Source: an uncultured Planctomycetia bacterium (GTDB lineage Bacteria > Omnitrophota > Gorgyraeia > 1-14-0-20-64-10). Taken from it: a stretch of 64,000 nt of DNA. Of this stretch, positions 30,832 through 45,482 are shown piece by piece. Position numbers and translations under genes: made by a program. Within the stretch, counting starts at the first letter, position 1, and each line of letters starts with the position of its first letter. The stretch spans positions 118,521 through 182,520 of the forward strand of contig CAYJVR010000002.1 of NCBI GenBank assembly GCA_964373715.1. Reading direction: 5' to 3'. Under the pieces are notes generated by a model. The model ran no database searches. It was not told where the DNA came from and was given only the letters and a program-made list of their open reading frames with translations.

Positions 30832-31142
30832 TGAAGAAAAGCCTCACCCAGCATGAGGCGGCGGAGCTGTTCAAGGCGCTGGCGGATGAGACCCGCTTGA
30901 GGATCTTGCGGATCCTGTTCGAGAGGGAGCACTGCGTGACCGACCTGATGACCGAGCTGAAGCTCGCGCAGTCCTATGTGTCGCACCACTTAAAGATACT
31001 GAAAACCGCCGGGTTGATTGACTCCCGGAGGGAAGGGCATAAGATCTACTACGCCCTTTTGCCGCAGGTGAAGCAGGGATTGTCGGACGCGAAACAGGAG
31101 TCGCTCGACTTAGGTTGCTGCGAAGTGACGTTCAAGGAGTAA
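30831..31142 (+). CDS. arsR: ArsR/SmtB-family metalloregulatory repressor
   Basis: HTH (CVTDLMTELKLAQSYVSHHLKILKTAGL) and a C-terminal Cys pair (LDLGCCEV) typical of As(III)-sensing ArsR variants. Translationally coupled to the upstream gene. Confidence 0.85.
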   Translation: MKKSLTQHEAAELFKALADETRLRILRILFEREHCVTDLMTELKLAQSYVSHHLKILKTAGLIDSRREGHKIYYALLPQVKQGLSDAKQESLDLGCCEVTFKE

Positions 31143-31199: not shown

Positions 31200-32312
31200 A
31201 TGACGGCTCTTTTTCTGATTGCGGCGGTTCTTTTCCTTGCCTACACCAACGGGGCGAACGATAACTTCAAGGGGGTTGCCACACTTTTCGGCAGCAAAAC
31301 GGCCGATTACCGTAAAGCGCTTGCTTGGGCGACCGTCACCACTTTTGCCGGCTGTCTTGCCGCGATCTGGGTTTCTCAGGGGTTGATCAAGGCTTTCAGC
31401 GGAAAGGGGATCGTGCCTGCCGCGATGACGACCGATCCGAGATTTTTGTTGGCCGTCGGTTTTGGCGCTGCCCTAACCGTTTTCTTGGCAACGCTGCTCG
31501 GATTCCCGATTTCAACGACCCATGCGCTGACCGGCGCTCTGGTGGGGGCCGGGTGGATGTTGGTTGGGTCCCAGGTGAATGTGGGGAAATTGGGCCAAAG
31601 TTTCTTCCTGCCTCTGGCGTTAAGCCCTGTTGTATCTTTGGCGATTACAACAGTTTTGTATCCCTCCCTCCGGTTTATCCGGCAGACGGTCGGCGTGACG
31701 AAACAGTTGTGTCTTTGCATCGGGCCGGTCCGTGAGCCGGTTCTTGTCCGGACTGACGGGACCATGGTGATGAAAGCGACCGGGTCCGAGCTGTCGGTCG
31801 GGGAACTGAAGAACTGCGTTGAGCAGTACCAAGGGGTCCTTCTCGGCGTTGATTTCCAGCGGGTGATCGATTTTTTTCATTACCTTTCGGCCGGGGCCGT
31901 CGGTTTTGCGCGCGGGTTGAACGACGCGCCCAAGATCGTGGCCATCCTCATCACCGCCCAAGCTCTGCGCATTGGGACGAGGGAAGCCCTTCTGCTTGTC
32001 GCGGTTGCGATGGCCGCTGGCGGCATTCTGAGCGCCAAGAAGGTGGCGCAGACGATGAGCCAGCGGATCACAGCGATGAACCACGGCCAGGGATTCACAG
32101 CGAATTTGGTCACCAGCGTCCTTGTCTCGATGGCTTCCCGCTTTGCGTTGCCGGTTTCAACGACGCATGTTTCCTGCGGCGCCCTTTTCGGTATCGGTTT
32201 GGTCAACCGGAATGCCAACGTCGGTGTCATCCGGAACATCCTGCTTTCCTGGCTGATCACCCTTCCTGTCGCGGCGGGTGTGGCGGCCTCTCTCTATTGG
32301 CTACAGCGGTAG
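31200..32312 (+). CDS. PiT-family inorganic phosphate (and arsenate) transporter
   Basis: Duplicated GANDxxK/N signature (NGANDNFKG; ARGLNDAPKIVA), about 10 TM helices, and a large central loop. Confidence 0.85.
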   Translation: MTALFLIAAVLFLAYTNGANDNFKGVATLFGSKTADYRKALAWATVTTFAGCLAAIWVSQGLIKAFSGKGIVPAAMTTDPRFLLAVGFGAALTVFLATLLGFPISTTHALTGALVGAGWMLVGSQVNVGKLGQSFFLPLALSPVVSLAITTVLYPSLRFIRQTVGVTKQLCLCIGPVREPVLVRTDGTMVMKATGSELSVGELKNCVEQYQGVLLGVDFQRVIDFFHYLSAGAVGFARGLNDAPKIVAILITAQALRIGTREALLLVAVAMAAGGILSAKKVAQTMSQRITAMNHGQGFTANLVTSVLVSMASRFALPVSTTHVSCGALFGIGLVNRNANVGVIRNILLSWLITLPVAAGVAASLYWLQR

Positions 32313-32410: not shown

Positions 32411-32430
32411 TCAACCTATTGAGGTAAATC

Positions 32431-33723
32431 ATGAAAAATATGCGTGGCCGTATGGCGTTGTGGATGGCTGGGGTCTTCTTTGTATCTTATGCTGTTCCCG
32501 TGCAGGCGTCGGAGATGGACATCCTGCTGAGGAAGTTGGTGGAGAAGAAGGTTTTGACCGAGCAGGAGGCGCAGGAAGTCCGTGGCGAGGTGGAGCAGGA
32601 AGTTGCCCGGTCCGCCAAATTCGAGAAGGAAGACGTCAAGGAAACCGTCAAGAAGATACCCGGAGGGACCTGGCTCGAGAAAACGAAATGGGCCGGCGAC
32701 CTGCGCCTGCGGCACGAGAGCCAACTGCGGGAGCCCGCGGCCGACCGGCATCGGGAACGATTCCGCTTGAGGTTCGGTTTCACGACGAAACCGTGGGACC
32801 AGATGGAGGTGGGTGTCCGGCTGGCTACCGGCGCCAGCGGTGATCCGGTTTCCACCAACCAGAGTTTTACCGGCACTTTCGACAAAAAAGCGGTTTTCAT
32901 TGACCGGGCGTACGCGAAATACACGCCGTGGCCCTGGTTCAATCTTGTTGGCGGCAAGATGGAGATACCGTTCGACACTGCCACGGAGATTTTTTGGGAC
33001 GGGGACCTGACGCCGGAAGGGGTGGCCGTTCAGTTCAAGACGCCGGAACCCCTGCCGTTTTTTAAAGAAACTTTTCCGACCAAACTGTTTGCCAACGTCG
33101 GGGCGTTTCAGATTTCGGAGCTCAGCGACGACGCCGGGGATCCGGCAATGTTTGGTTTCCAGGTTGGGAAAGAGACAGGGTTGCCCCGCGGGTTGGTGTG
33201 GACCTCTTCCATCGGTTATTATGACATCACCGCGGTCAGGGGAAAGAGGACTTCTGACATTACTCAGGTGAGCGCTCCCAGCGGCAACTCGACCGATGGT
33301 CCGGTCGCAGCGCCGGTCTACCGGTACGATTTCAACCCGCTCGATATCCAGGGGAAGCTGCTGATTCCGGATATCCTCGGCCAGCAGGTGGTGCTGATCG
33401 GGGATTTTGTCCATAACCCGGTTGCGGAGGATGATAACGGCGCCTGGCAGGCGGGCATCAAGGTGGGGAAGGTGACCGAGAAGATGGGGAGCTGGGAATC
33501 TTCCTACTACTACAAAAGAGTTGAACCGGACGCGATTTTCGGGGCGATCACCGATTCCGATTTTGGCGCCGGCGGATCGAACCATCACGGGCACCGAGTC
33601 GGCCTGCGGGTCGGTTTGAGCAAATGGACTGAGGCCGGCATCACTTATTACCGCACCGATGAGATCGAAGGGGCCCAGAACAAGGTGGATACTCTGCAGG
33701 TGGACGCTTCTGTAAAATACTGA
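32431..33723 (+). CDS. Putative outer-membrane porin (beta-barrel with an N-terminal coiled-coil segment)
   Basis: Signal peptide, charged coiled-coil N-terminus, alternating hydrophobic beta-strand pattern, C-terminal aromatic (…DASVKY). AT-rich promoter-like region upstream. Confidence 0.6.
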   Translation: MKNMRGRMALWMAGVFFVSYAVPVQASEMDILLRKLVEKKVLTEQEAQEVRGEVEQEVARSAKFEKEDVKETVKKIPGGTWLEKTKWAGDLRLRHESQLREPAADRHRERFRLRFGFTTKPWDQMEVGVRLATGASGDPVSTNQSFTGTFDKKAVFIDRAYAKYTPWPWFNLVGGKMEIPFDTATEIFWDGDLTPEGVAVQFKTPEPLPFFKETFPTKLFANVGAFQISELSDDAGDPAMFGFQVGKETGLPRGLVWTSSIGYYDITAVRGKRTSDITQVSAPSGNSTDGPVAAPVYRYDFNPLDIQGKLLIPDILGQQVVLIGDFVHNPVAEDDNGAWQAGIKVGKVTEKMGSWESSYYYKRVEPDAIFGAITDSDFGAGGSNHHGHRVGLRVGLSKWTEAGITYYRTDEIEGAQNKVDTLQVDASVKY

Positions 33724-33799: not shown

Positions 33800-34855
33800 A
33801 TGCTGATGCGCCGCGGATTGTGGATAACAGTTATTGCGCTCGCTGGGTTTATCTCAATCGTGAGCCCCGCCGCCGCTTCTTCGAAGCAGGAAACGGTCAT
33901 TGAAGCGGGCGCGTTCTCGAACGGTTTGCCGGCCGGTTTTCCGGAGGGGTGGGAGCTTGTGCCGGCTAAAACCTCGGGGAAACGAACCCTTTACCAGCTT
34001 GTCCGTGAAGGGGAAATCGTTGTCTTAAAAGCGGTCAGCCAAGCAGCCTCCTCCGGCCTGATGCGGGTGGTCTCTTTAAATCCCCGGGATTACCCGATTA
34101 TCCAGTGGCGCTGGAAAGTGGAGGATCTCCTCCGCAGAAGTGATATTTTCCGTAAAAATGGAGACGATTTTTCTGCCCGGCTCTTTCTTTCTTTTGAAAC
34201 AGATCCCTCCAAGGCGGGATGGAGGGAAAGAATTTACATCCAGGCCGGCCGGCTTCTTTACGGGGATTACCCTCTGGCGGAAGGGCTCAACTATGTCTGG
34301 GCCAGCCGCGAGCCTGAGGGAACTATGACTTCCAGTCCGTACACCGAGAGGCTCAAAACAGTTGTTATCGAGAGCGGCAGCGGCAAGCTGAACACGTGGG
34401 TGGTGGAGGAACGGAATTTTTATGAGGACTACAAAAAGGCTTTCGGGCAGGAGCCGCCCGCTCTTTACAGCGTGGCGGTGATGACGGATACCGATAATAC
34501 CGGCGGGACGGCGGTGGCTTATTACGGGGATATCCTCTTCAGTAAAGAGCCGTTGAAAAGCGTGATGGAGGGGCAGCCGAGATATGGTACGATCACCGAG
34601 AGTTCTTCACTTCCAGGCATTCAGGGGACCGCCATCATCTCAAAAAATATTGACCAGCGAGGCCGCCGCGTTAGAGCGCTGGGGGGGATTGCCCTCCTGG
34701 CGGCGGCCCTCTTGTTGGTGTTGGGAGTCCCTTCCTGGCCGGTATGGAAGATTATCATCGTGATCAGCTTTTCGTGCGGCGGGTTGTTCATGCTTTTCGA
34801 GGCCTTCAGCGGGTGGTGTGTGCTGCGCGCCTGCGGCATAAAAACCCCCGTATAG
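33800..34855 (+). CDS. Secreted DUF3047-like domain protein with a C-terminal YgaP/DUF2892-like two-helix membrane anchor
   Basis: Signal peptide. C-terminal LGGIALLAAALLLVLG...SFSCGGLFMLFEAFSGWCVLRACG matches the Gx-W-C...R-x-CG pattern of DUF2892. The DUF3047 assignment is from memory. Confidence 0.55.
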   Translation: MLMRRGLWITVIALAGFISIVSPAAASSKQETVIEAGAFSNGLPAGFPEGWELVPAKTSGKRTLYQLVREGEIVVLKAVSQAASSGLMRVVSLNPRDYPIIQWRWKVEDLLRRSDIFRKNGDDFSARLFLSFETDPSKAGWRERIYIQAGRLLYGDYPLAEGLNYVWASREPEGTMTSSPYTERLKTVVIESGSGKLNTWVVEERNFYEDYKKAFGQEPPALYSVAVMTDTDNTGGTAVAYYGDILFSKEPLKSVMEGQPRYGTITESSSLPGIQGTAIISKNIDQRGRRVRALGGIALLAAALLLVLGVPSWPVWKIIIVISFSCGGLFMLFEAFSGWCVLRACGIKTPV

Positions 34856-34869
34856 GAAACCTTAGATTA

Positions 34870-36393
34870 GTGAGAGTTGTCATTATCGGCGCGGGCATCG
34901 GCGGGTTGGCTTGCGGGATCCGTCTGGCGTCGCGCGGTTATCAGGTCACGATCCTTGAAAAGAACGAGATAGCCGGCGGGCGATGCAACCGCTATCAGGA
35001 AAAGGGTTTTACGTTCGACACCGGGCCGACCCTTTTCATGATGACCGACACCCTTGAAGAGCTTTTTCGGTATGCCGGCCGAAAGATGTCCGATTACGTG
35101 ACCCTGTGCCGGATTGATCCCGCCTACAGAATCACCTATTCCGATGGCCAAACTCTTGAGTTCACCGATAGGATGAAGATTCTGGAGGAGGAGATCCGGA
35201 AATTCGGCCCCCGTGAGCTTCAGGGATTCTACCGGTACGCGGCCCAGAACGGCGAATCGTACAGGCACCTGCGGGCGAAGTTCATCGACAAACCGCTGGA
35301 GGTTCCCTCCCAGTGGGCTGATTTAGAGTCGCTTGGCCTGCTGGCCCGGCTGAAGCCTTGGAGAGATGTCCTTTCGGTGGCCAAACGGCACTTTGATTCT
35401 CCCCACCTGCGGATGGCGTTCAGCTTTCACACGCTCTATCTGGGGATTTCCCCGCAGGCAGCCCCGTCCATGTACACCATGCTTCCTTATATTGATCTCG
35501 TGCAGGGGGTCCATTACCCTCTCGGTGGGATGTCCCAGATTCCGGCGGCTTTAACGCGCCTCTTCGGCGAGCTCGGAGGAGAGATACGGTATGGCGTCGA
35601 GGTCGAGCAGATCGTCACCAGTTCGGGCCGTGTCAGGGAGGTGCTTCTGCACGATGAGAGAACCGTCCCTGCCGACGTCGTCGTTTCGAACGTTGATATG
35701 CCGGTCACGATGAACCGTTTCCTGAAGCACCAGCCGATGTCCGGCCACAAGCGGCGCGTCCTCAAGATGAAAAGGGGCTGTTCCGCCGCCGTTTTTCTCT
35801 TGGGGCTCGACAAGGCCTATCCGCAGTTGTCCCACCATAACCTCTATTTGCCGATGGTTTTTGAGAGATCTCTTCATGAGTTGTTTGATCTGGGGCAAAT
35901 CCCTCAAGAACCGGCCTTTTATCTGTGTGCGCCTGCAAGAACGGATGCGGCGATGGCACCAAAGGGGTCCGAGAGCGTCATGATTTTAGTACCTTGTCCG
36001 AATGAGGAGGTGCTGCCGGATGTCGGCGCGCAGATGCCCCTGTTACGTGAGAAACTTTTGAACCTTTTGGACCGAACGTTTTTGCCGGATATCCGGCGCC
36101 ATATCATTGTCGATAAAACTCTGCCTCCCTCCTGGTATGGGCGGCGCTACGCGTTGGCCGGTTCGGCCACATTCGGTTTCTTGCCGACATTTTTCCAGTC
36201 AGCGATGTTCCGGCCCCAGAGGCGGTCTCCGGACGTCCGGGGCCTTTACTATGCCGGGGCCAGCACCCATCCGGGCAACGGAATCCCGATCGTTTTAATC
36301 GCCGGCCGATTTGCCGCTGAGGCTATTGTTGAAGATTTTGGTTCGGTGCGCCATGTCCTCCCTTCTGTCCGAAACGTTACGCCAATCGGTTGA
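34870..36393 (+). CDS. Phytoene-desaturase-family (CrtI/CrtN/CrtP-like) FAD-dependent oxidoreductase, copy 1; likely GTG start at 34870
   Basis: VVIIGAGIGGLACGIRLA...ILEKNEIAGGR dinucleotide-binding fold; C-terminal GAGTHPG-like motif (YYAGASTHPGNGIP). Confidence 0.8.
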   Translation: MRVVIIGAGIGGLACGIRLASRGYQVTILEKNEIAGGRCNRYQEKGFTFDTGPTLFMMTDTLEELFRYAGRKMSDYVTLCRIDPAYRITYSDGQTLEFTDRMKILEEEIRKFGPRELQGFYRYAAQNGESYRHLRAKFIDKPLEVPSQWADLESLGLLARLKPWRDVLSVAKRHFDSPHLRMAFSFHTLYLGISPQAAPSMYTMLPYIDLVQGVHYPLGGMSQIPAALTRLFGELGGEIRYGVEVEQIVTSSGRVREVLLHDERTVPADVVVSNVDMPVTMNRFLKHQPMSGHKRRVLKMKRGCSAAVFLLGLDKAYPQLSHHNLYLPMVFERSLHELFDLGQIPQEPAFYLCAPARTDAAMAPKGSESVMILVPCPNEEVLPDVGAQMPLLREKLLNLLDRTFLPDIRRHIIVDKTLPPSWYGRRYALAGSATFGFLPTFFQSAMFRPQRRSPDVRGLYYAGASTHPGNGIPIVLIAGRFAAEAIVEDFGSVRHVLPSVRNVTPIG

Positions 36394-37819
36394 CCTCAAC
36401 GGCGGTTCGGCCGCGCAGGCTGTTTCCGGCGCCCGGGCCGCTTTTGAAAGATGGAGATCCCTGTCTATCCGCCAGCGTGCGGCCTATCTGTTCACACTGC
36501 GCCGCCGGATCGCCGCCCAAGCGGAATCTCTCTCTCAGCTAATTGCCGAAGAGAACGGGAAGCCGGTCCTCGAAGCGTTAGGGGCGGAGGTTTTCGGGTC
36601 TCTGGAAGCTCTCGGCGTCCTTTTGTCGGAGGGGGAGAAATGGCTTGCTCCCGAAAATATCCGGATGACTTTTTTTGACCGGTTCCGTGGAGTGCGCCGA
36701 AGACAGCTCTTTTATGAACCGTTCGGTGTTATCGGGATCATAGGCACCTGGAATTACCCTCTTTTGATCAACATGAGGCAGATTACCAGCGCTTTATTTG
36801 CCGGCAACACCGTTGTCTGGAAACCGTCGGAACTTTCGCTGAATCTCGCCGTTCGTCTGCAGTCTCTTTTCGAGGAAGCCGGTTTCCCCGAGGGGGTCTT
36901 CACCCTCCTTCCCGGGGATAGCCGGGCCGGAGAGGCCCTTATTAAGGCGGGATGCGATAAGGTCATTTTTACCGGCCATGGGAAGACCGGCCGCAGGATT
37001 CTTGCTGCGTTGGCTGAACAGGCGGTGCCCTCGGTTATGGAGCTCTCCGGGGCGGACGCCGCTTTGGTTTGCGAGGATGCCGATCTTCCACTTGCCGTGA
37101 AAGGCCTGGCCTGGGGCGCGATGACCAACGCGGGGCAGTCCTGTGTCGCCAGCCGGCGCATTATCGTTCATCAGACTGTTTACCCTGTTTTCGCGGATGC
37201 CTTTCTCAAGATTGTCCGCGCCTTAAAGATCGGCGACCCGAAGAATCCGGACACGGAGGTTGGGCCGCTGAGGACGCAGGCGCAGGCGGATCTTTTGGAG
37301 GAGTTGATCCGGGATGCCGTCGGTAAAGGGGCCGTTGTATTGGCGGGCGGACGCCGATTGAACAATCCCGGAGGTGTTTTTTTTGAGCCGGCGGTTTTGA
37401 CAGGGGTAAACGATTCCATGACCATTGTCCGGGAAGAATTCTTCGGTCCGGTGGTTCTGTTATTTTCCGCCCGGGATGAGGGGGAGATGGTTGCGTTTGC
37501 CAACAACTCTCCGTACGGATTGGGCGCCAGCGTTTGGACCAGGGATCGCCGCCGCGGCCAGCGCCTCGCTTCCCGGTTGGAGTCGGGGATTGTTTGGGTC
37601 AATGAAGCCCTTTTTTCGGCCGGAGACGGTCGTCTTCCTTTCGGCGGCGTCAAAGGGTCTGGTTTCGGGCGGGTGGGCGGAGCGGAGGGTTTAAGGCAGA
37701 TGGCCCGCGTGAAATGCGTTGAGGAGGCGTCGCCTCAGGGGTTCCGTCCCCACTATTTCCCTTATGGCGCTGAGAAATATAAGCAGCTTTCCAAAATCAT
37801 CCGCTGGAGGCATCGGTGA
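36353..37819 (+). CDS. NAD(P)-dependent aldehyde dehydrogenase
   Basis: GTWNYPL, VVWKPSE, catalytic ELSGADAALV (Glu), GQSCVA (Cys) and EEFFGPV motifs. Confidence 0.85.
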   Translation: MSSLLSETLRQSVDLNGGSAAQAVSGARAAFERWRSLSIRQRAAYLFTLRRRIAAQAESLSQLIAEENGKPVLEALGAEVFGSLEALGVLLSEGEKWLAPENIRMTFFDRFRGVRRRQLFYEPFGVIGIIGTWNYPLLINMRQITSALFAGNTVVWKPSELSLNLAVRLQSLFEEAGFPEGVFTLLPGDSRAGEALIKAGCDKVIFTGHGKTGRRILAALAEQAVPSVMELSGADAALVCEDADLPLAVKGLAWGAMTNAGQSCVASRRIIVHQTVYPVFADAFLKIVRALKIGDPKNPDTEVGPLRTQAQADLLEELIRDAVGKGAVVLAGGRRLNNPGGVFFEPAVLTGVNDSMTIVREEFFGPVVLLFSARDEGEMVAFANNSPYGLGASVWTRDRRRGQRLASRLESGIVWVNEALFSAGDGRLPFGGVKGSGFGRVGGAEGLRQMARVKCVEEASPQGFRPHYFPYGAEKYKQLSKIIRWRHR

Positions 37820-37868
37820 CCCCACCACCTGTTTTCTCGGTGATGGGCAGGTTAAAGGAGGTGGTGGG

Positions 37869-39398
37869 GTGAGCCGTATCGCTGTGGTTGGAGGCGGACT
37901 TGCCGGTTTGGCCGCCGCTATCCGCTGCGCCCACGCGGGGCATGAAGTGACTCTGTTTGAGAAGAACGACCGGGCGGGGGGGAAGATGAACGTGATCGAG
38001 GAACGAGGGTTCCTTTTCGACACCGGCCCCACCATTATGACGATGCCGCAGAATCTGAACCGGTTGTTTGCCTCGGTAGGCCGGCGGCGGGAGGATTACA
38101 TTCCGCTCGTTCCGCTTGATCCCCAGTGGCGGGCTTTTTTCGAGGACGGGAAGGTGATCAACGTTTGGGGGAACCGGGGAAAAATGACCGAAGAGATCCG
38201 CCGGTTTTCGAGCAAAGATGCCGATTCGTACGCCCGGTTCCGGGAATATGCGCAAAGGATGTACGGGTTTGCGGAGAGGTTCTTCTTCTGGCGTTCGGTG
38301 AGCAATCTGAACGACCTGCTGGCGATGAACGGCCTGATGGGTATGGAGAGCATGAAAATCCTGTGGCAGATAGATCCGCTAGCGACCGTTTCAAACGCGA
38401 TTGACCGGCATTTCCAGGAGCCTCATGTGCGGCAGATCTTAGAGCATTTCATGCAGTACGTTGGTTCGGACCCGCACCGGGTCCCGGCGTTCCTGACGGC
38501 CATTCACCATATCCAGATGGAGTTCGGTGTCTGGTACCCGATGGGGGGCATGAATCGGATTGCCGCCGGCCTGACCCGGCTGGCGAATGATCTCGGCGTG
38601 AAGATTGTCCTTAACGCCCAGATCAGCCGGATCGTAACCGAAGGATTCCGTGTCCGAGGTGTGGAACTCCAGGGAGAGATGGTTCCGGCCGATGCGGTCC
38701 TTGCCAATTCGAACTTTGTTCGTTCCCACAAAGAGCTTCTGCCGGCGACCGCCACAAAACGACGCATTGAGAATAACCCTAAAAGGTATGAACCGGCCTG
38801 TTCGGGGATCGTGATCTATTTTGGGGTGGACCGGAAATATGATTCTCTCTGGCACCACGACTTCTTTTTTTCAAAGGATCCGAAACGGGAATTTGAGGAC
38901 ATCTACCGAAGGAAAATCCCGACGCAGGACCCGACGCTGTGCGTCTGCGCCCCTTCCCGGACCGACGCCTCCGTGGCTCCGCCCGGCTGCGAAAACGTTT
39001 ACGTGCTGGTGCATACTCCATACCTGCAGGGAAAAGAAAACTGGGAGACCCTCTACCGGCCGTACAGAGACCTGATCGTCCGGAAGCTGGAGAGGTGCGG
39101 GCTGACCGATTTCCGGAAACACATCGTAGTGGAGAAGTGGATGACGCCGGTGGATTTGGAGCAGCGGTACCGGGTGGACCGAGGGGCAATCTATGGGATC
39201 GCCAGCCACGGCCGGTTCCGGGGAGGGTTTAAACCTTCCAACCGGTCGAAAGATTTTTCGAATCTCTACTTCTGCGGAGGCAGCGTTAATCCCGGCCCCG
39301 GTGTCCCGATGGCGCTCATGTCGGGGCAGATTGCCGCCGACTGCGTTCTTGAGGACATCGGTTCGGTTCGTGCCTTCCGGCAGCCTAGTTTGGTTTAA
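37869..39398 (+). CDS. Phytoene-desaturase-family FAD-dependent oxidoreductase, copy 2; likely GTG start at 37869, preceded by AAAGGAGG
   Basis: IAVVGGGLAGLAAA...LFEKNDRAGGK; C-terminal YFCGGSVNPGPGVP. Confidence 0.8.
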   Translation: MSRIAVVGGGLAGLAAAIRCAHAGHEVTLFEKNDRAGGKMNVIEERGFLFDTGPTIMTMPQNLNRLFASVGRRREDYIPLVPLDPQWRAFFEDGKVINVWGNRGKMTEEIRRFSSKDADSYARFREYAQRMYGFAERFFFWRSVSNLNDLLAMNGLMGMESMKILWQIDPLATVSNAIDRHFQEPHVRQILEHFMQYVGSDPHRVPAFLTAIHHIQMEFGVWYPMGGMNRIAAGLTRLANDLGVKIVLNAQISRIVTEGFRVRGVELQGEMVPADAVLANSNFVRSHKELLPATATKRRIENNPKRYEPACSGIVIYFGVDRKYDSLWHHDFFFSKDPKREFEDIYRRKIPTQDPTLCVCAPSRTDASVAPPGCENVYVLVHTPYLQGKENWETLYRPYRDLIVRKLERCGLTDFRKHIVVEKWMTPVDLEQRYRVDRGAIYGIASHGRFRGGFKPSNRSKDFSNLYFCGGSVNPGPGVPMALMSGQIAADCVLEDIGSVRAFRQPSLV

Positions 39399-39404
39399 AA
39401 AACG

Positions 39405-40508
39405 GTGTCAGCCAACCTTTACACCCATCCTCCGTCGAGGTTGTTGTACGCTCAGGTCAGGGAAGATCCCGATGTGGATCTTCAAGCTCTGCGTATTGTT
39501 CCCGACGACAAGGTGCTGGCCGTCACCTCCGGCGGCTGCACCGCGCTGACCCTGCTGGCGGAAGGGCCGAAGGAGCTCCTCTGCGTCGATTTCAACCCCG
39601 CCCAGAATTACCTGCTCGAGCTTAAACTGGCGGCGATCCGCAGTCTGCCCCTGGTTGAATGCCGATCTTTCCTCGGGGCCCGTAAAGGAGGCGGACGGTT
39701 GGCCGCGTACCGGTCCCTGACCGGAGCGCTTTCACCGCTGACCCGGGTCTTTTGGGACAAGAACCCCCAGAGGATCGAGGAGGGGGTCCTTTACGCGGGC
39801 GCCACCGAAGCGATGGTGAAATGGATGAGGCGCCTTGTCTTTGGGTTTGTCCATTCTCCCGAGACGTTAAGGCCTTTGCTTAAACAGAGAGATACGCAGG
39901 CCCAAACCGATTTTTACAAGAATGTTTGGAACAATAAACGGTGGCAAGGTGTAATGAAACTGGCTTTCCATCCGCTGATGTTCAAAGTTGTTTACGGGCG
40001 CCGGTTTCTTCAACGGCTCGGCGAGGAAGATCTTACCAGTTTGTGGATGCAGAAGATCGAGCATGCCTTCACAGATATCCCGGTCCGAAACAACTATTTT
40101 CTTTCCCAGTTATTTTGGGGAAGGTTCCTTCCCGGAGAAGAAGGGCTGCCGCCCTATCTGCGTGAAGGGGTCTTCGAGCGGGTCCGGGCGAACGCCGGCC
40201 GTTTGAAATGGGTGACGGGCGATCTTATCACTGTTTTAGGAAGCGTTCCTCTGGGGCGTTACACCAGGATGACCCTTTCCAACGCTTTTGAGTGGATTCC
40301 AAAAATGAGGACAAAAGAGGCGTTTGAGTCTCTGTCCTGGGCTCTCGCACCCGGCGGGAAGGCGGTTGTGCGGCACCTGCTGGGCGTGACCCCTCTGCCG
40401 GCCGGCGTTGATTTGCGGGAGCTCAAAGAAGTCAGCGATCGGCTGACAGTCCAGGAAAGGGCATTCCTTTACAGCCGGGTATCGGTTTATGAAAGGACCC
40501 GGCAATGA
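39405..40508 (+). CDS. DUF3419 / BtaA-like protein (family of SAM:diacylglycerol 3-amino-3-carboxypropyl transferase)
   Basis: N-terminal LLYAQVREDPDVDLQAL...VLAVTSGGCTAL matches the YAQVWEDP...SAGCN signature I recall for BtaA/DUF3419. Confidence 0.6.
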   Translation: MSANLYTHPPSRLLYAQVREDPDVDLQALRIVPDDKVLAVTSGGCTALTLLAEGPKELLCVDFNPAQNYLLELKLAAIRSLPLVECRSFLGARKGGGRLAAYRSLTGALSPLTRVFWDKNPQRIEEGVLYAGATEAMVKWMRRLVFGFVHSPETLRPLLKQRDTQAQTDFYKNVWNNKRWQGVMKLAFHPLMFKVVYGRRFLQRLGEEDLTSLWMQKIEHAFTDIPVRNNYFLSQLFWGRFLPGEEGLPPYLREGVFERVRANAGRLKWVTGDLITVLGSVPLGRYTRMTLSNAFEWIPKMRTKEAFESLSWALAPGGKAVVRHLLGVTPLPAGVDLRELKEVSDRLTVQERAFLYSRVSVYERTRQ

Positions 40509-41461
40509 CGGCTGTTGTTTCGCGCAGGTGGTTAGGCCCGCTGTGCAGGTGGCTCTGGTATCTGTCCCTCTCTTATTTATGGCTTGGCCTGATGTTCCTC
40601 CTGTTCATCCATCAGGCGACCTCTTTTTTCTGGTGGGGTTTGCCAGCGGCCGTCATTTTTTGGAGATTGGCGAAAGCTCTGTCGCCGCATTCTTTCGGAA
40701 CCTTCGGCAAATGGACGGTCCATTTTCTCTGCGCGTTTTTGCTTATCGGCGGGCAAGTTCTCCTATGGCGTTACGGCTATTTTTTCCGGGATCCGGAAAG
40801 GGTAATCCCTTCCCGGCCGGCTATCCTGGCTCCGGCGGATGGTTTTATCGTTTATATCCGGCCGGTCAGCGAGGGGATGGTTCCTCTGGCCATCAAGAAC
40901 AAGGTGCCGATCCGGTTGGAGGAGATCCTCAAGATGGAGAGTCCCATCGGGGAAAGCGTGATCGTCGGGATCTTCATGACGCCGATGAGCGTCCACATCA
41001 ACCGGTCCCCGATCAACGGTGTTATCCAGGAGAGGGCCTACTTTACGGGGGAGCCGATGCGCTCGATGCTGCCGATGGGTCTTCGCACGATGTTTCTTCG
41101 AAAACCTTTTGAAGCGGGGTCGGAGCATATTCTCCGGAATGAGAGGGAGACCCTGTTGATCCGAGGAGATTTCCCGGTTTTGCTGACCCGTATTGCCGAC
41201 CCTTTCGTGGATAAGATTGTGACCTGGAAAACCATCGGAGAGACGGTCCGGCAGGGTGAACGGCTGGGGCTCATCAAGATGGGTTCCCAAACGGATCTGG
41301 TGTTTCCTTCCCGGATGAACGGCAAGCCGGTCCGCGTTTATGTCAAAGAGGGACAGTATGTGTATGCCGGCAGCACCATTCTCGCCGATTACGATGGCGC
41401 TGCCCTCGCACACCACCCTCTCCCCCTGCTAGGGGGAGAGGATAAAGGTGAGGGGGTATGA
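40505..41461 (+). CDS. Phosphatidylserine-decarboxylase-like (pyruvoyl-dependent) enzyme with N-terminal TM segments
   Basis: Three N-terminal TM helices; FMTPMSVHINRSP.NG and LIKMGSQTD (the G-S-T/Q self-cleavage region) resemble PSD family motifs. ATGA overlap with the upstream gene. Confidence 0.65.
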   Translation: MTAVVSRRWLGPLCRWLWYLSLSYLWLGLMFLLFIHQATSFFWWGLPAAVIFWRLAKALSPHSFGTFGKWTVHFLCAFLLIGGQVLLWRYGYFFRDPERVIPSRPAILAPADGFIVYIRPVSEGMVPLAIKNKVPIRLEEILKMESPIGESVIVGIFMTPMSVHINRSPINGVIQERAYFTGEPMRSMLPMGLRTMFLRKPFEAGSEHILRNERETLLIRGDFPVLLTRIADPFVDKIVTWKTIGETVRQGERLGLIKMGSQTDLVFPSRMNGKPVRVYVKEGQYVYAGSTILADYDGAALAHHPLPLLGGEDKGEGV

Positions 41462-43395
41462 TCTCCGTCATCATCCCGACGCTGAACGAAGAGGCAACCC
41501 TTCAGGCAACGCTCGATTCAGTTGCGGCCAACCAGGCGGATTATGAAGTAATCGTCGTGGATGCCGGCAGCAGCGACAAAACGGCGGAGATTGCGCACGG
41601 CGCCGGCGCTCGCCTTCTGGTGAGCCCCCGGCGACATCGGGCGGCCCAGATGAATTTTGGGGCGAAGGAGGCGAAAGGGGAGATACTGTTCTTCCTCCAC
41701 GCCGATACCCGGATTCCTACCGCCGCTTTGAAACGGATCGAGCAGGCGCTTGCGCGGGCGGACATGGTTGGCGGCGGGTTCCGTCGTTATTTCGATTCAA
41801 AGTCGCTGTTTTTGAGAGCCAGTTGCTGGGTGGCCGGGATCCGGTGCCGGGTCTCGGGGCTGTTCTTGGGGGACCAGGGGATATTCATCCGGCGCAGTCT
41901 CTTTGAAAAATTGGGCGGTTTCCGGGAGCTGGATTTCTTTGAGGATGTGGATCTCTGCCGTCGGATGAAGGAATTTGGACGGGTGGCGACCCTGGGTCCG
42001 CCGGTTCTTTCATCGGCCCGCCGGTTCGAGCGTTTTGGGCCGGTGGCCACGACCTTCACGGACCTCTCTTTATCGCTGAGGTACATAAAAGGGGAAGATC
42101 CGAACGGTTTAGCCGCAGAATTGAGGGGTGAGTTCACGTCCGGCGAAAAGATATCGGCCATCATCCCGACACTCAATGAAGAAGAGTCATTGCCCCGCCT
42201 GCTTTCCCAGGTTTGCGGAAAAGTTGAGGAGGTGATCGTCGTTGATGGGGGGTCTTCGGACGGCACAGTGGAAGCCGCTCGGCATTTTCCGGTCAAGGTC
42301 ATCCTCTCCGCGAGGGGGAGGGCTTTTCAGATGAATACGGGGGCGTCAGCCGCTTCAGGGGATCTCCTCTGGTTTCTCCACGCTGATACCCAGCTGCCGT
42401 CCAATTGGCGCGGGCAGATGGCCTCTGCTTTGAGAAAGCCATCCGTTATTGGAGGGGGATTCCGAGTGGTGATTGATGCCTCCGGCATCGGGTACCGTTT
42501 TCTCGATTTATGGGGGCGGTTGCGCACCGGCATCCAAGGGTCTTTCTATGGAGACCAGGGGATCTTTGTGCGTCGCGGATTCTTTGAATCGTTAGGAGGG
42601 TTTGACGACCGTCCTGTTTTGGAAGATTTGGATTTCTCAACGAGGATGTCACGGCGGGCCAGGGTAAAAATTCTTGCCGGGCCTATAAAAACGTCGGCCA
42701 GACGCTGGCAATCCCAGGGCTGGTGGTCCACCGTGTTGCAGCACTGCCGGTACGCTGTTTCTTACCTGTTTAGCCCGAAAGCCGGTTCTGCGGCCGTTTT
42801 GATCGTTATGGCAAAAGCCCCTGTTCCCGGTCAGGTGAAGACCCGGCTTATTCCGGCTTTAAACCCGGAACAGGCCGCTCAGATTGCCGAAAGGCTTTTG
42901 AGGGAAACAGCGGTTCTTGTCCATCAGGTGGAGGGGATCCGCCCCGTTATTGCCGTTTCCCCTCCGGAGGGAATGGAGCGGGTGAAAGAGGTCCTTTCTT
43001 TTCCGGCGAGATTGATTCCTCAGCCGGAAGGGGATCTTGGGATCCGTTTGACCCGGTTATTCCAGGAGACTTTTGATTCCGGCGCCCAGGCGGTGCTGGT
43101 GTTGGGGGCCGATCACCCGAATCTTCCGCAAGAGTATCTGGCGCAGGCGGTAGCGGAGTTAAGAAAAAGAGGGGACCGGGTTGTGTTCGGGCCGACCGAG
43201 GATGGCGGATATTATCTGGTCGGGATGAAAAGGCCGCACCCCGAGCTGTTTGCCGGGATAACCTGGAGCACCTCTGAGGTCTTGCGCCAAACCCTGGGAA
43301 AGGCGAAGACCTCTGGAGTTTCTGTAAAGCTATTACCTTCCTGGTACGATTTGGATCGGCCTGAGGATTTGGCCCGGTTAGCCGTTGTGACTTGA
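41458..43395 (+). CDS. Triple fusion: GT2 glycosyltransferase + GT2 glycosyltransferase + DUF2064 (MobA-like nucleotidyltransferase fold)
   Basis: Two copies of the IS(V/A)IIPTLNEE...(L)FLHADT GT-A signature at residues 1-210 and 220-440. C-terminal LIVMAKAPVPGQVKTRLIP...GADHPNL...EDGGYYLVG resembles DUF2064. ATGA overlap with the upstream gene. Confidence 0.8.
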   Translation: MISVIIPTLNEEATLQATLDSVAANQADYEVIVVDAGSSDKTAEIAHGAGARLLVSPRRHRAAQMNFGAKEAKGEILFFLHADTRIPTAALKRIEQALARADMVGGGFRRYFDSKSLFLRASCWVAGIRCRVSGLFLGDQGIFIRRSLFEKLGGFRELDFFEDVDLCRRMKEFGRVATLGPPVLSSARRFERFGPVATTFTDLSLSLRYIKGEDPNGLAAELRGEFTSGEKISAIIPTLNEEESLPRLLSQVCGKVEEVIVVDGGSSDGTVEAARHFPVKVILSARGRAFQMNTGASAASGDLLWFLHADTQLPSNWRGQMASALRKPSVIGGGFRVVIDASGIGYRFLDLWGRLRTGIQGSFYGDQGIFVRRGFFESLGGFDDRPVLEDLDFSTRMSRRARVKILAGPIKTSARRWQSQGWWSTVLQHCRYAVSYLFSPKAGSAAVLIVMAKAPVPGQVKTRLIPALNPEQAAQIAERLLRETAVLVHQVEGIRPVIAVSPPEGMERVKEVLSFPARLIPQPEGDLGIRLTRLFQETFDSGAQAVLVLGADHPNLPQEYLAQAVAELRKRGDRVVFGPTEDGGYYLVGMKRPHPELFAGITWSTSEVLRQTLGKAKTSGVSVKLLPSWYDLDRPEDLARLAVVT

Positions 43396-43454
43396 GACGC
43401 GATTTGCGGTAAAATAACGGATGAAACTGTCAGGAGAGAAGAGATTCGAGAACG

Positions 43455-43781
43455 ATGGGAATGCCGAATAAACCCCCGCGGCTTCGAGATCCGAGAATCG
43501 CGGCGGTCGTCAATCAAAACGGATGCACCGGCTGTGAAGCCTGCCTGACTGTCTGTCCGGTGGATTCTATTGAGTTTGTGCCTGGCGTGGAATACTCCGG
43601 TTTATTAAAAATGGTGGAGATAGATCTGGATCGCTGCATCGGCTGCGGGCTGTGCCCGAAAATTTGCCCGTGGGACACCATATCGATGGTCGACTACAAA
43701 GAGGCGCGTCCGATAGCGGAATCCCTCACGATCCGCAGCATTGTGCCGGGGCAAAAGCCCGGCGTCTCTTCCCCTGTTTAA
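43455..43781 (+). CDS. 2[4Fe-4S] ferredoxin
   Basis: CTGCEACLTVCP and CIGCGLCPKICP cluster-binding motifs. Confidence 0.8.
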   Translation: MGMPNKPPRLRDPRIAAVVNQNGCTGCEACLTVCPVDSIEFVPGVEYSGLLKMVEIDLDRCIGCGLCPKICPWDTISMVDYKEARPIAESLTIRSIVPGQKPGVSSPV

Positions 43782-43793
43782 AAGGAAAATGCA

Positions 43794-44267
43794 ATGGCCG
43801 CGACGTATGTCACAAAAGCGGGTCTTGAAAAACTCCAGCAGCAGTTGAAGGATCTTACTGATCACAAGAGGCGCCTTTCCGCGGAGGTGGGCAAAGCAAG
43901 GGAGTTGGGTGATTTGCGGGAAAACGCCGAGTACCATGCCGCCCGGGAGCGCCTCGGACAAATACTCGATAAGATCGCCGTACTCCAGGAAAAACTCCAG
44001 CATGTGGAAATCGTGGACACCTCCACACTTCAGAAGGGTATCGCGATCATCGGAACCCGCGTGACGGTCAAGGATCTCAGCAGCTCGCAGGAAGAGACTT
44101 ACGAATTGGTGGGGGCTGAAGAGTCGGATCCGGCCGCCGGTAAGATCTCGGTCCTTTCTCCTCTGGGTAAAGCTTTTCTCGGGCATAAGGTCAACGAGAA
44201 GGTGACAGCCGCCCTCCCGGGAGGAGCCTTTTCCTACCAGATCCTTTCCATAGAGCCGGTTGGATAA
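43794..44267 (+). CDS. greA: Transcription elongation factor GreA
   Basis: LTKAGLEKLQQQL coiled-coil N-terminus, RENAEYHAAR motif, and an FKBP-like C-terminal domain. Confidence 0.9.
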   Translation: MAATYVTKAGLEKLQQQLKDLTDHKRRLSAEVGKARELGDLRENAEYHAARERLGQILDKIAVLQEKLQHVEIVDTSTLQKGIAIIGTRVTVKDLSSSQEETYELVGAEESDPAAGKISVLSPLGKAFLGHKVNEKVTAALPGGAFSYQILSIEPVG

Positions 44268-45477: not shown

Positions 45478-45482
45478 AGGCG

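What the first reader, a model, noticed from the sequence alone, without database searches (positions are those of the whole stretch)
39405..41461. A BtaA-like (DUF3419) gene overlapping a phosphatidylserine-decarboxylase-like gene
The DUF3419 N-terminal signature (YAQVREDP...VTSGGC) matches the BtaA family, which transfers the 3-amino-3-carboxypropyl group of SAM onto a lipid (betaine-lipid / homoserine-lipid synthesis). The next gene, overlapping by ATGA, is a membrane-anchored PSD-like pyruvoyl decarboxylase (HINRSP, MGSQTD). A decarboxylase acting on an aminocarboxypropyl adduct would give an aminopropyl headgroup. ArsL-type chemistry also transfers the aminocarboxypropyl group of SAM to arsenic. 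The pairing therefore suggests synthesis of an unusual amino-lipid or amino-acid-type headgroup, possibly on an arsenical.
Basis: inference. Interest (0 to 1): 0.6.

Follow-up and report, generated by a model that had tools for sequence, protein, structure and literature searches.

The report
Aminopropyl-tailoring gene pair in carotenoid operon
A BtaA-like SAM enzyme and a membrane-anchored phosphatidylserine-decarboxylase-like enzyme form a rare, conserved gene pair inside a C30-carotenoid-acid operon next to arsenic and phosphate genes; it probably puts an amino(propyl) head group on a membrane lipid, a combination we did not find described.

Summary
39405-40508 is a DUF3419/BtaA-family protein (Pfam 1.5e-60). 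40505-41461 is a PSD-family proenzyme (1e-36) with an intact Gly-Ser self-cleavage site and three N-terminal membrane helices. The two genes overlap by ATGA.

The pairing is not chance. Both proteins belong to small sister clades, and they are adjacent in 8 of 9 distinct loci that carry this DUF3419 clade. None of 81 loci with more distant DUF3419 genes has a PSD-like neighbour. True btaA genes are followed by the methyltransferase btaB instead.

In 6 of the 8 lineages the pair sits inside a crtN-like / aldH / crtP-like trio, which is the C30 carotenoic-acid operon. In 4 lineages a radical-SAM–ArsM fusion lies within 10 kb, and in 2 an ArsC-type reductase ends the operon.

Best reading: SAM-dependent aminocarboxypropyl transfer followed by pyruvoyl decarboxylation (microcin-C-like aminopropylation) on a membrane lipid. 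The likeliest acceptor is the carotenoic acid, then diacylglycerol. An arsenical acceptor is unsupported but not excluded. This is a new variant of known chemistry, inferred from genomic context only.

The parts
39405..40508 (+). DUF3419 (BtaA-family) protein, 367 aa. Predicted SAM-dependent 3-amino-3-carboxypropyl transferase with a class I methyltransferase fold split by a large helical insert.
40505..41461 (+). PSD-family pyruvoyl decarboxylase proenzyme, 318 aa. It has three N-terminal membrane helices and a Gly260-Ser261 self-cleavage site. The start overlaps the DUF3419 stop codon (ATGA).
   Evidence: Pfam PF02666 127 bits; all NCBIfam PSD equivalogs are below their cut-offs. Invariant D112, H164, N166, R167, G260 and S261. 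A profile aligns it to E. coli PSD. Foldseek matches E. coli PSD 7cnx and PsiD 8x4q. Helices 2-35, 40-59 and 67-92. Junction read.
34744..36393 (+). CrtN-like (CrtI/N-type) carotenoid desaturase. The true start is probably near 34864-34873, because the FAD motif VVIIGAGIGG begins at residue 45 of the longest ORF.
   Evidence: TIGR02734 463.6 bits against cut-off 238. Best solved relative is CrtI 4dgk at 285.7 bits, ahead of 4rep at 217. Start region read.
36353..37819 (+). Aldehyde dehydrogenase (aldH/crtNc position), 488 aa counted from the ATG at 36353.
   Evidence: PF00171 430 bits. No NCBIfam equivalog reaches its cut-off. It occupies the same position between two CrtI-family genes in all related loci. 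Start read.
37869..39398 (+). CrtP-like (CrtD/P-type) carotenoid oxidase/desaturase, 509 aa. It ends 6 nt before the DUF3419 start.
   Evidence: TIGR02734 428.7 bits. Best solved relative is 4rep at 286 bits. The nearest relatives outside the module share 46-51% identity and are named 'diapolycopene oxygenase' by JGI. A 59% relative lies beside a squalene/phytoene synthase gene in L098.
41458..43395 (+). Triple fusion GT2-GT2-DUF2064, which NCBIfam names 'arsenosugar biosynthesis glycosyltransferases'. The start overlaps the PSD-like stop codon (ATGA).
   Evidence: TIGR04283 444.8 bits (2 stretches, cut-off 182) and TIGR04282 200.9 bits (cut-off 134). Junction read. Present after the pair in L004 and L011 as well.
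33800..34855 (+). DUF3047 protein with a C-terminal YgaP-like transmembrane domain. It is the first gene of the probable operon.
   Evidence: PF11249 216.6 bits. It precedes the crtN-like gene in L004 and L011. A terminator-like hairpin at 33751-33769 lies upstream, but such hairpins are not above chance overall.
28177..30831 (+). Radical SAM/SPASM domain fused to an ArsM-type As(III) methyltransferase, 884 aa (context gene).
   Evidence: PF04055, PF13186 and PF13847. PRK11873 arsenite methyltransferase 227.7 bits; ArsS TIGR04167 only 59.7 against cut-off 300. CNLSCSHC cluster motif and ArsM-type cysteines CC, GCG, SNCV and GEC read. Homologous fusions lie next to the module in L004, L009 and L093.
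30831..31142 (+). ArsR/SmtB metalloregulator (context).
   Evidence: NF033788 98 bits against cut-off 55.
31200..32312 (+). PHO4/PiT-type phosphate (arsenate) transporter (context).
   Evidence: PF01384 212.6 bits. Also present in L004 and L093.
32431..33723 (+). Porin_5 outer-membrane porin (context).
   Evidence: PF16930 194 bits. In L011 it follows pstSCAB.
43455..43781 (+). 2x[4Fe-4S] ferredoxin, conserved after the GT fusion (context).
   Evidence: Fer4 families. Same position in L004 and L011.

Best explanation
The two genes are a dedicated two-step tailoring pair that works at the membrane. Step 1 (inferred): the DUF3419 enzyme uses SAM as an alkyl donor rather than a methyl donor. It transfers the 3-amino-3-carboxypropyl group to an oxygen nucleophile of a lipid and releases methylthioadenosine. 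Step 2 (inferred): the membrane-anchored PSD-like enzyme cleaves itself at Gly260-Ser261 to make a pyruvoyl group. It then removes the alpha-carboxyl of the new homoserine-type head group, leaving a 3-aminopropyl head group. The genes around the pair (crtN-like, aldH, crtP-like) make a C30 4,4'-diapocarotenoic acid. The most likely acceptor is therefore the carboxylate end of that carotenoid, and the pair occupies the place that the CrtQ/CrtO tailoring genes hold in ordinary C30 operons. The product would be a homoserine ester and then an aminopropyl ester of the pigment, that is, a nitrogen-bearing, phosphorus-free membrane carotenoid. I put the general mechanism (sequential transfer and decarboxylation on a membrane lipid) at about 0.65. 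The specific carotenoid acceptor stands at the confidence given below. What is shown: family membership, intact catalytic motifs, membrane anchor, conserved adjacency and operon context. What is inferred: both activities, their order, and the acceptor.
For: Families and motifs. Folds: class I SAM enzyme, with the known aminocarboxypropyl transferase MccD among the hits; PSD fold. Membrane anchor. Translational coupling: ATGA read, and 4-14 nt overlaps in L004, L006, L009, L010, L011, L092 and L093. Co-inheritance: both proteins form small clades of similar size, about 16 and 18 clusters among 5.8 billion proteins, found on the same contigs. The pair is present in 8 of 9 loci carrying this DUF3419 clade and in 0 of 81 loci with distant DUF3419 genes. 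The PSD-linked DUF3419 proteins form one clade. Carotenoid context: both flavoproteins pass TIGR02734. One is nearer CrtI and the other nearer the CrtD-type structure, which matches the CrtI-N / CrtD-P split described in 10.1101/2021.12.22.473825. The same crtN-aldH-crtP order stands alone in an outgroup locus, and a 59% relative lies beside a squalene/phytoene synthase gene. Methylomonas crtN/crtNb/crtNc form a cluster (PMC10745290). The pair lies inside this trio in 6 of 8 lineages and is interleaved with it in L006. A precedent for transfer followed by decarboxylation is MccD/MccE (PMC10491745).
Against: No biochemistry exists for any member of either clade. No backbone synthase gene (crtM, hpnCDE or sqs) was found among the window ORFs scanned, so carotenoid production by this organism is unproven. 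Two lineages (L010, L092) carry the pair with no carotenoid genes within 10 kb, which suits a ubiquitous acceptor such as diacylglycerol better. One clade member of each family occurs without its partner (L008; L095). The only characterised DUF3419 enzyme alkylates a diacylglycerol hydroxyl, not a carboxylate. I know of no natural carotenoid with such a head group. The arsenic linkage is not explained by this model.
Confidence: 0.4

Rival explanations
1. The acceptor is diacylglycerol (or phosphatidic acid), as for BtaA. The DUF3419 enzyme makes diacylglyceryl-homoserine (or phosphatidyl-homoserine), and the PSD-like enzyme decarboxylates it to a propanolamine-type lipid analogous to phosphatidylethanolamine. 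In the diacylglycerol case the product is phosphorus-free. The carotenoid genes are then only co-regulated membrane-remodelling partners under phosphate or arsenate stress.
For: The protein belongs to the BtaA family, and family-wide motifs are conserved. The decarboxylase derives from the short membrane-bound PSD family, whose known substrates are glycerolipids. DUF3419-PSD mirrors the logic of pssA-psd. Pair-only loci L010 and L092 need a ubiquitous acceptor. Phosphate transporters and porins recur nearby: PHO4 in the window, L004 and L093, and pstSCAB in L011. This fits phosphate-sparing lipid remodelling.
Against: Identity to btaB-linked BtaA is only 26-30%, the clade is separate, and there is no btaB. 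The DUF3419 family has at least three unrelated conserved contexts, so the acceptor cannot be read from family membership. Tight interleaving with crtN/aldH/crtP in 6 of 8 lineages is unexplained by this model.
Confidence: 0.22
2. The acceptor is an arsenical. The DUF3419 enzyme transfers the aminocarboxypropyl group of SAM to As(III) or methylated As(III) by nucleophilic attack, making an arsinothricin-like amino acid without the radical enzyme ArsL. The PSD-like enzyme decarboxylates this amino acid. Aldehyde-level oxidation could then give arsenopropionate-type compounds.
For: A radical SAM-ArsM fusion lies within 10 kb in 4 of 8 lineages, and ArsR is present in the window and L004. An ArsC-type reductase is the last gene of the operon in L009 and L093. 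'Arsenosugar' glycosyltransferase families lie downstream. The PSD fold can act on a free amino acid, as PsiD does.
Against: The decarboxylase has a three-helix membrane anchor and the short-PSD FFRDPER architecture typical of lipid enzymes. The flanking flavoproteins are true carotenoid-type CrtI-family enzymes, not small-amine oxidases. In the DUF3419 clade alignment only one cysteine, C45 in the SGGC SAM motif, is invariant, so no conserved Cys-pair or RCCLKC-like arsenic-binding motif is seen (compare). The pair occurs without arsenic genes in L006, L010, L011 and L092. The rSAM-ArsM fusion family is much larger than the pair's clades.
Confidence: 0.07
3. There is no shared pathway. The PSD-like gene is simply the organism's housekeeping phosphatidylserine decarboxylase, which happens to lie next to a BtaA-family gene in a lipid-gene neighbourhood.
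For: It shows a clear PSD-family match with all catalytic residues. NCBI annotators name the homologue 'phosphatidylserine decarboxylase'.
Against: All 11 NCBIfam PSD and archaetidylserine decarboxylase models score far below their cut-offs. The clade is tiny, about 18 clusters at 90% identity, and mirrors the DUF3419 clade contig by contig. No CDP-alcohol phosphatidyltransferase (pssA) appears in any related locus. Start and stop codons overlap across lineages as distant as Omnitrophota, Elusimicrobiota and Polyangia.
Confidence: 0.08
4. The order is reversed, as in route b proposed for microcin C. The PSD-like pyruvoyl enzyme first decarboxylates SAM, and the DUF3419 enzyme then transfers an aminopropyl group from decarboxy-SAM.
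For: This alternative has not been excluded even for MccD/MccE (PMC10491745). SAM decarboxylases are also pyruvoyl enzymes (established knowledge).
Against: The enzyme has the PSD fold and a membrane anchor, not the AdoMetDC fold. A membrane-embedded enzyme acting on a soluble cofactor is unusual.
Confidence: 0.05

Closest known systems
BtaA (S-adenosylmethionine:diacylglycerol 3-amino-3-carboxypropyl transferase) of the btaAB betaine-lipid operon
   Same: Same Pfam family (PF11899). The family-wide motifs are kept: (W/R)EDP, SGGC, DxNPxQ, NYF. The predicted fold is SAM-binding.
   Different: Identity is only 26-30% and the clade is separate. The downstream partner is a PSD-like decarboxylase, not the N-methyltransferase BtaB. 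There are clade-specific substitutions at positions fixed in btaB-linked BtaA: W19R, N46T, G135E, L292S, D293N, D296E. The operon context is carotenoid, not Pho-regulated glycerolipid.
Short (PRK05305-type) bacterial/archaeal phosphatidylserine/archaetidylserine decarboxylases
   Same: FFRDPER, PADG, VH(V/I)NR(S/A)P and NER motifs, the G-S cleavage site and an N-terminal membrane anchor. The fold matches E. coli PSD.
   Different: All NCBIfam equivalog scores are below cut-off. The anchor is longer, with three helices. Two extra segments are present (about residues 121-148 and 198-213). The cleavage-site motif is MGSQ instead of FGSR. The partner is a DUF3419 gene, not pssA.
MccD + MccE(N-terminal domain): aminopropylation of microcin C
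   Different: There is no sequence homology to MccD beyond the class I fold. The decarboxylase here is a pyruvoyl PSD-type membrane enzyme, not a PLP enzyme. The substrate would be a lipid, not a peptidyl-nucleotide.
C30 carotenoid operons crtN-aldH-crtP with crtQ/crtO tailoring (Methylomonas crtN/crtNb/crtNc; Planctomycetes; staphyloxanthin)
   Same: Two CrtI-family flavoproteins flank an aldehyde dehydrogenase in one operon. Tailoring enzymes that modify the carboxyl end are encoded next to them.
   Different: The tailoring genes are DUF3419 plus PSD-like, and in three lineages a TIGR04283/TIGR04282 glycosyltransferase fusion, instead of CrtQ (GT2) and CrtO (acyltransferase). No backbone synthase was found in the window. 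Arsenic genes are attached.
Arsenosugar (ArsM/ArsS/TIGR04282/TIGR04283) and arsinothricin (ArsL/ArsM) pathways
   Same: The neighbourhood contains an ArsM-type domain, a radical SAM domain and both 'arsenosugar' glycosyltransferase families above their cut-offs. ArsL also moves the aminocarboxypropyl group of SAM.
   Different: The radical SAM domain is neither ArsS (59.7 against 300 bits) nor an RCCLKC-tail ArsL-type enzyme. The DUF3419 enzyme is not a radical enzyme, and only one cysteine (C45, in the SGGC SAM motif) is invariant in its clade.

Membership tests
BtaA / DUF3419 (PF11899) | Match to the family profile above the curated threshold | tested here: met
   205.8 bits against gathering score 28.2, covering profile positions 8-345 of 385.
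BtaA / DUF3419 (PF11899) | Family-wide invariant residues (ED of WEDP, S-G-G, D-x-N-P, W117, G132, N of NYF) | tested here: met
   E20, D21, S42, G44, D62, N64, W117, G132 and N230 are conserved in a 91-sequence alignment.
BtaA sensu stricto (betaine-lipid synthase of btaAB) | Adjacent btaB N-methyltransferase | tested here: not met
   BtaB homologues lie beside DUF3419 genes only in L001-3, L063, L064, L069 and L085, and in S. meliloti and Chondrinema. None was found in any of the clade loci searched (L004-L013).
BtaA sensu stricto (betaine-lipid synthase of btaAB) | Orthology (same clade as btaB-linked proteins) | tested here: not met
   In the NJ tree the PSD-linked proteins form their own clade far from the btaB-linked ones. 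Identity is 24-30%.
BtaA sensu stricto (betaine-lipid synthase of btaAB) | Aminocarboxypropyl transfer from SAM to diacylglycerol | not testable with these tools
   Needs an enzyme assay or lipidomics.
Phosphatidylserine decarboxylase family (PF02666) | Profile match above threshold and PSD fold | tested here: met
   127 bits against 22. Foldseek matches E. coli PSD 7cnx/7cnz at E about 1e-6.
Phosphatidylserine decarboxylase family (PF02666) | Self-cleavage G-S site and conserved Asp/His of the proenzyme | tested here: met
   G260, S261, D112 and H164 are invariant across 22 sequences. In the alignment to the E. coli PSD chain, PADG aligns with the E. coli PADG and H164 with the first His of E. 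coli's YHRVH motif.
Housekeeping PSD (NCBIfam equivalogs) | Score at or above an equivalog cut-off | tested here: not met
   Best is NF003685 at 119.8 against 183. Archaetidylserine decarboxylase TIGR00164 scores 96.5 against 230.
Housekeeping PSD (NCBIfam equivalogs) | Phosphatidylserine synthase (CDP-alcohol phosphatidyltransferase) partner nearby | tested here: not met
   No such family appears among the called genes of L004, L006, L009, L010, L011, L092 or L093, or among the window ORFs scanned.
C30 carotenoid crtN-aldH-crtP unit | Two CrtI-family flavoproteins, one of CrtI/N type and one of CrtD/P type, with an ALDH in the same operon | tested here: met
   TIGR02734 463.6 and 428.7 bits. 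The best solved relatives are 4dgk (CrtI) for the first and 4rep for the second. Outgroups are named diapolycopene oxygenase. The same order occurs in an outgroup locus.
C30 carotenoid crtN-aldH-crtP unit | A C30 backbone synthase (CrtM, HpnCDE or Sqs) in the genome | tested here: inconclusive
   None was found among the larger window ORFs scanned, and the rest of the genome is not available. A 59% CrtP-like relative does sit beside an SQS_PSY gene (226 bits) in L098.
MccD/MccE-type aminopropylation | SAM-dependent aminocarboxypropyl transferase encoded with a decarboxylase acting on the adduct | tested here: inconclusive
   The gene pairing and folds are compatible. The activities are untested, and the decarboxylase is pyruvoyl-type, not PLP-type.
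Arsenosugar pathway (ArsM, ArsS, TIGR04282, TIGR04283) | ArsS radical SAM enzyme (TIGR04167) | tested here: not met
   59.7 bits against cut-off 300, covering the generic radical SAM core only.
Arsenosugar pathway (ArsM, ArsS, TIGR04282, TIGR04283) | TIGR04283 and TIGR04282 transferases | tested here: met
   444.8 against 182 and 200.9 against 134 for 41458-43395.
ArsL-type arsinothricin synthase | Radical SAM enzyme with a C-terminal RCCLKC arsenic-binding tail | tested here: not met
   No ArsL model appears among the 25 best of the 82 NCBIfam matches of the fusion protein, all of which score at least 59.7 bits. The fusion ends in ...GCGPAGCC, not RCCLKC.

The most novel reading that the evidence does not exclude
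The whole island, from 28177 to 43781, may be one pathway for an arsenic-bearing, phosphorus-free membrane lipid. The island comprises the radical SAM-ArsM fusion, ArsR, a phosphate/arsenate transporter and porin, the C30 carotenoic-acid genes, the DUF3419/PSD-like pair and the 'arsenosugar' glycosyltransferase fusion. In this reading the carotenoic acid, or another lipid, is linked through a homoserine or aminopropyl spacer or a sugar to an organoarsenic group. Alternatively, the DUF3419 enzyme forms the As-C bond non-radically. Either would be a bacterial arsenolipid route, with genes in hand for a class of compounds whose biosynthesis is unknown.
Probability: 0.1. Interest if true: 0.9.

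Novelty: new variant of a known kind. Interest (0 to 1): 0.62.

Why it matters
If the model is right, this is the first lipid-level example of aminopropylation by aminocarboxypropyl transfer plus decarboxylation. It would give a second, non-BtaA function for the large and mostly uncharacterised DUF3419 family. It would also give a PSD-family enzyme a new substrate. The product would be a nitrogen-containing C30 carotenoid or a new phosphorus-free amino lipid, and I know of no natural example of either. The repeated attachment of arsenic genes (radical SAM-ArsM fusion, ArsR, ArsC, 'arsenosugar' transferases) and phosphate-uptake genes makes the locus a concrete, clonable candidate. It could be used to test how bacteria couple membrane remodelling to arsenate or phosphate stress, and, less likely, how arsenolipids are made. 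The module is about 6.6 kb and could be expressed in existing E. coli C30-carotenoid strains.

Tried and rejected
1. I first considered the two CrtI-family genes plus the ALDH as a lipid-amine oxidase and aldehyde dehydrogenase acting after the pair (amine to aldehyde to acid). I rejected this as the lead model. Both flavoproteins are full-length relatives of carotenoid desaturases. The same trio stands alone elsewhere. A 59% relative lies beside a squalene/phytoene synthase gene.

2. The housekeeping-PSD idea was rejected for the reasons listed under the rivals.

3. The genome-contig scan returned only three distant alphaproteobacterial btaAB loci. The metagenome scan returned 78 distant loci and only 2 close ones. 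These were useful only as negative controls. Many of them are short contigs, so '0 of 81' partly reflects limited flanks.

4. phmmer of both proteins against PDB sequences found nothing. Profile and fold searches were needed.

5. The promoter and terminator scan of 26000-45500 gave counts no higher than shuffled sequence, so the operon boundaries rest on gene spacing only.

6. Literature searches for DUF3419, BtaA+PSD, diacylglyceryl-homoserine decarboxylase, arsenolipid gene clusters, ArsM-radical SAM fusions and carotenoid + aminocarboxypropyl found nothing on this pairing. The library lacks most subscription journals.

7. The representative search with the radical SAM-ArsM fusion showed a family much larger than the pair's clades. 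The fusion is therefore not a dedicated partner of the pair.

8. No squalene/phytoene synthase (crtM/sqs/hpnCD-type), pssA or ArsS family appeared among the roughly 40 larger window ORFs scanned. ORFs not scanned could hide small genes.


Full report
**1. The observation**

The two ORFs exist as described.
- 39405-40508 (GTG start, 367 aa) matches Pfam DUF3419 at 205.8 bits, E 1.5e-60.
- 40505-41461 (318 aa) matches PS_Dcarbxylase at 127 bits, E 1e-36.
- The quoted motifs are present.
- The ATGA stop/start overlap at 40505-40508 was read in the DNA. A second ATGA overlap links the PSD-like gene to the next gene at 41458.
- No NCBIfam model matches the DUF3419 protein.
- All eleven NCBIfam PSD or archaetidylserine-decarboxylase models fall far below their cut-offs, the best being 119.8 against 183.

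**2. The two proteins**

*DUF3419 protein.* The model (pLDDT 88) has a class I SAM-methyltransferase Rossmann core interrupted by a large helical insert.
- Residues invariant across a 91-sequence family alignment are kept: E20, D21, S42, G44, D62, N64, W117, G132, N230.
- Several positions fixed in btaB-linked BtaA are replaced throughout this clade: W19R, N46T, G135E, L292S, D293N, D296E.

*PSD-like protein.*
- It keeps the FFRDPER, PADG, VHxNRxP and NER motifs and the Gly260-Ser261 cleavage site. All are invariant in a 22-sequence alignment that includes canonical short PSDs.
- A profile aligns it to E. coli PSD.
- Its model (pLDDT 87) has three long N-terminal helices (hydropathy).
- The model matches E. 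coli PSD and the soluble-substrate family member PsiD.
- It is therefore a competent pyruvoyl proenzyme with a membrane anchor, but not a standard Psd.

**3. Is the pairing conserved?**

Homologue searches found about 16 close DUF3419 clusters (45-92% identity) and about 18 close PSD-like clusters (46-100%). These are tiny families in a 5.8-billion-protein collection, and several members share contigs.

Deduplicated contexts are as follows.
- Window and L004 (Omnitrophota MAG; the proteins are annotated 'BtaA family protein' and 'phosphatidylserine decarboxylase') share full synteny.
- L011/L012, L009 (Elusimicrobiota), L093 and L006/L007 carry the pair inside crtN-like/aldH/crtP-like genes.
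- L010 (Polyangia) and L092 carry the pair alone.
- L008/L013 carry the DUF3419 gene without a PSD-like gene.
- One PSD-like clade member (L095) has no DUF3419 gene in the 1.5 kb available upstream.

The pair is thus present in 8 of 9 loci that carry this DUF3419 clade, usually with overlapping or closely spaced stop and start codons. Of 81 loci with distant DUF3419 genes (26-36% identity), none has a PSD-like, CrtI-like or ALDH neighbour. Many of those contigs are short, which weakens this control.

True btaA genes are followed or preceded by btaB. This holds for S. meliloti, Chondrinema, L001-3, L063, L064, L069 and L085. In an NJ tree the PSD-linked proteins form one clade remote from the btaB-linked ones.

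**4. The operon around the pair**

The window order on the + strand is:
- radical SAM/SPASM-ArsM fusion
- ArsR
- PHO4
- Porin_5
- DUF3047
- CrtI-family A
- ALDH
- CrtI-family B
- DUF3419
- PSD-like
- GT2-GT2-DUF2064
- ferredoxin
- GreA

Both flavoproteins pass the phytoene-desaturase family model, at 463.6 and 428.7 bits against a cut-off of 238. They are full-length relatives of solved carotenoid desaturases. Protein A is nearer CrtI (4dgk), and protein B is nearer the 'gamma-carotene desaturase' 4rep. [quoted passage not shown] The same paper states that crtN and crtP usually form operons with aldH, crtQ and crtO (10.1101/2021.12.22.473825). Methylomonas clusters crtN, crtNb and crtNc (PMC10745290).

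Further support for a true carotenoid unit:
- Outside the module clade (58-77% identity), the nearest relatives of protein B number in the hundreds at 46-51% identity. JGI names many of them 'diapolycopene oxygenase'.
- One such locus shows the same CrtI-ALDH-CrtI order standing alone.
- A 59% relative lies between aldH and a squalene/phytoene synthase gene (L098).

I therefore read 34744-39398 as a C30 carotenoic-acid unit. No backbone synthase gene was found among the window ORFs scanned.

**5. Mechanism**

Aminocarboxypropyl transfer from SAM followed by decarboxylation is the route proposed for aminopropylation of microcin C by MccD and MccE (PMC10491745). In ordinary C30 pathways the carotenoic-acid carboxylate is the nucleophile that CrtQ esterifies. 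This point comes from established knowledge of staphyloxanthin biosynthesis, not from a tool.

By analogy, I propose two steps.
- The DUF3419 enzyme lets that carboxylate, or a lipid hydroxyl, attack C-gamma of SAM. This gives a homoserine-type head group.
- The membrane-anchored PSD-like enzyme removes the alpha-carboxyl and leaves a 3-aminopropyl group.

Families, motifs, anchor and linkage are shown. The activities, their order and the acceptor are inferred.

The pair-only loci keep diacylglycerol or phosphatidic acid as a serious alternative acceptor.

**6. The arsenic link**

Evidence that the link is real:
- A homologous radical SAM-ArsM fusion lies within 10 kb in the window, L004, L009 and L093.
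- L009 and L093 end the operon with an ArsC-type reductase. TIGR02691 scores 150.7 and 105.3 bits, against about 33 bits or nothing for tyrosine phosphatases.
- The fusion keeps the CxxxCxxC motif and the ArsM cysteines.
- The GT fusion passes both 'arsenosugar' transferase models.

Evidence against arsenic as the acceptor:
- ArsS is absent (59.7 against 300 bits).
- There is no RCCLKC tail.
- The fusion family is far larger than the pair's clades.
- L006, L010, L011 and L092 lack arsenic genes nearby.

Phosphate transport genes recur: PHO4, and pstSCAB in L011 and in the outgroup locus. Co-regulation under phosphate or arsenate stress is therefore the economical reading. A true arsenolipid pathway remains possible at about 0.1.

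**7. Verdict**

The pair is a new variant of known chemistry, in a context (a C30 carotenoid operon tied to arsenic genes) that I did not find described in the searchable literature. All functional statements rest on sequence, predicted structure and gene context.

Noticed in passing
window 28177-30831 (+): An 884-aa fusion of a radical SAM/SPASM domain with an ArsM-type arsenite methyltransferase. It is neither ArsS nor ArsL by score or motif. A library search lists several dozen representative clusters (50% identity level) of about 700-1080 aa that match in two stretches spanning most of the query, some about 200 aa longer. Its function appears undescribed.
   Followed up: partly
window 25013-28130 (+): Directly upstream of the fusion lies a run of three genes: a MerA-like FAD disulfide oxidoreductase (NF004991, 814.7 bits), a VTT/DedA membrane protein and a DUF547 protein. 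They may belong to the same stress island. I did not check whether they are conserved elsewhere.
   Followed up: no
L014-L091 (metagenome loci with distant DUF3419 genes): Most distant DUF3419 genes have neither btaB nor a PSD-like neighbour. They sit in a third conserved context on the same strand, with these recurrent neighbours: an unannotated 478-aa hydrophobic protein (21 loci), a GNAT-like protein (20), a PEP-utilising/PPDK-like enzyme (16), an AMP-binding ligase (14), a UbiA-like prenyltransferase (13) and a 'male sterility' NAD_binding_4 reductase (11). This looks like another uncharacterised lipid pathway.
   Followed up: partly
L008 / L013 (JGI Ga0134126_10000059): A DUF3419 protein nested inside the PSD-linked clade (61% identity) has no PSD-like partner. 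Its neighbours are Rieske oxygenase subunits, a CoA-transferase, an MFS transporter, a TauD dioxygenase and a 2Fe-2S ferredoxin. The enzyme may have been recruited to a small-molecule pathway.
   Followed up: no
L095 (ENA ERZ25039502 contig_223152): A PSD-like clade member (53% identity) has no DUF3419 gene in the 1.5 kb upstream. It lies near an aldehyde-decarbonylase-like gene, an MMPL transporter, a GNAT and glycosyltransferases, which is another lipid-type neighbourhood.
   Followed up: no
L011 1-4119; unnamed locus; window 31200-33723: Phosphate-uptake genes (pstSCAB or PHO4, often with a Porin_5 porin) recur immediately upstream of crtN-aldH-crtP units, with or without the DUF3419/PSD pair. 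This suggests that C30 carotenoid operons are linked to phosphate stress in these phyla.
   Followed up: no
P0297: An 811-aa Isosphaeraceae protein fuses a CrtP-like flavoprotein (48% identity to window 37869-39398) to a PF01553 acyltransferase domain. This would be a fused oxidase and tailoring enzyme of the C30 pathway.
   Followed up: no
window 8621-11068 (-): An 815-aa ORF combines COX15/CtaA (heme A synthase) and UbiA/CtaB (heme O synthase) domains. Together with the cytochrome c and multicopper oxidase genes nearby, it indicates an aerobic or microaerobic lifestyle for this Omnitrophota-like organism.
   Followed up: no
L006 6794-7018, L009 1738-1959, L093 11900-12127: Small ORFs of 73-75 aa with no family match lie just before the module (before aldH in L006, before the crtN-like gene in L009), or in L093 between the PSD-like gene and arsC. 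I did not test whether they are related to each other or present in the window.
   Followed up: no
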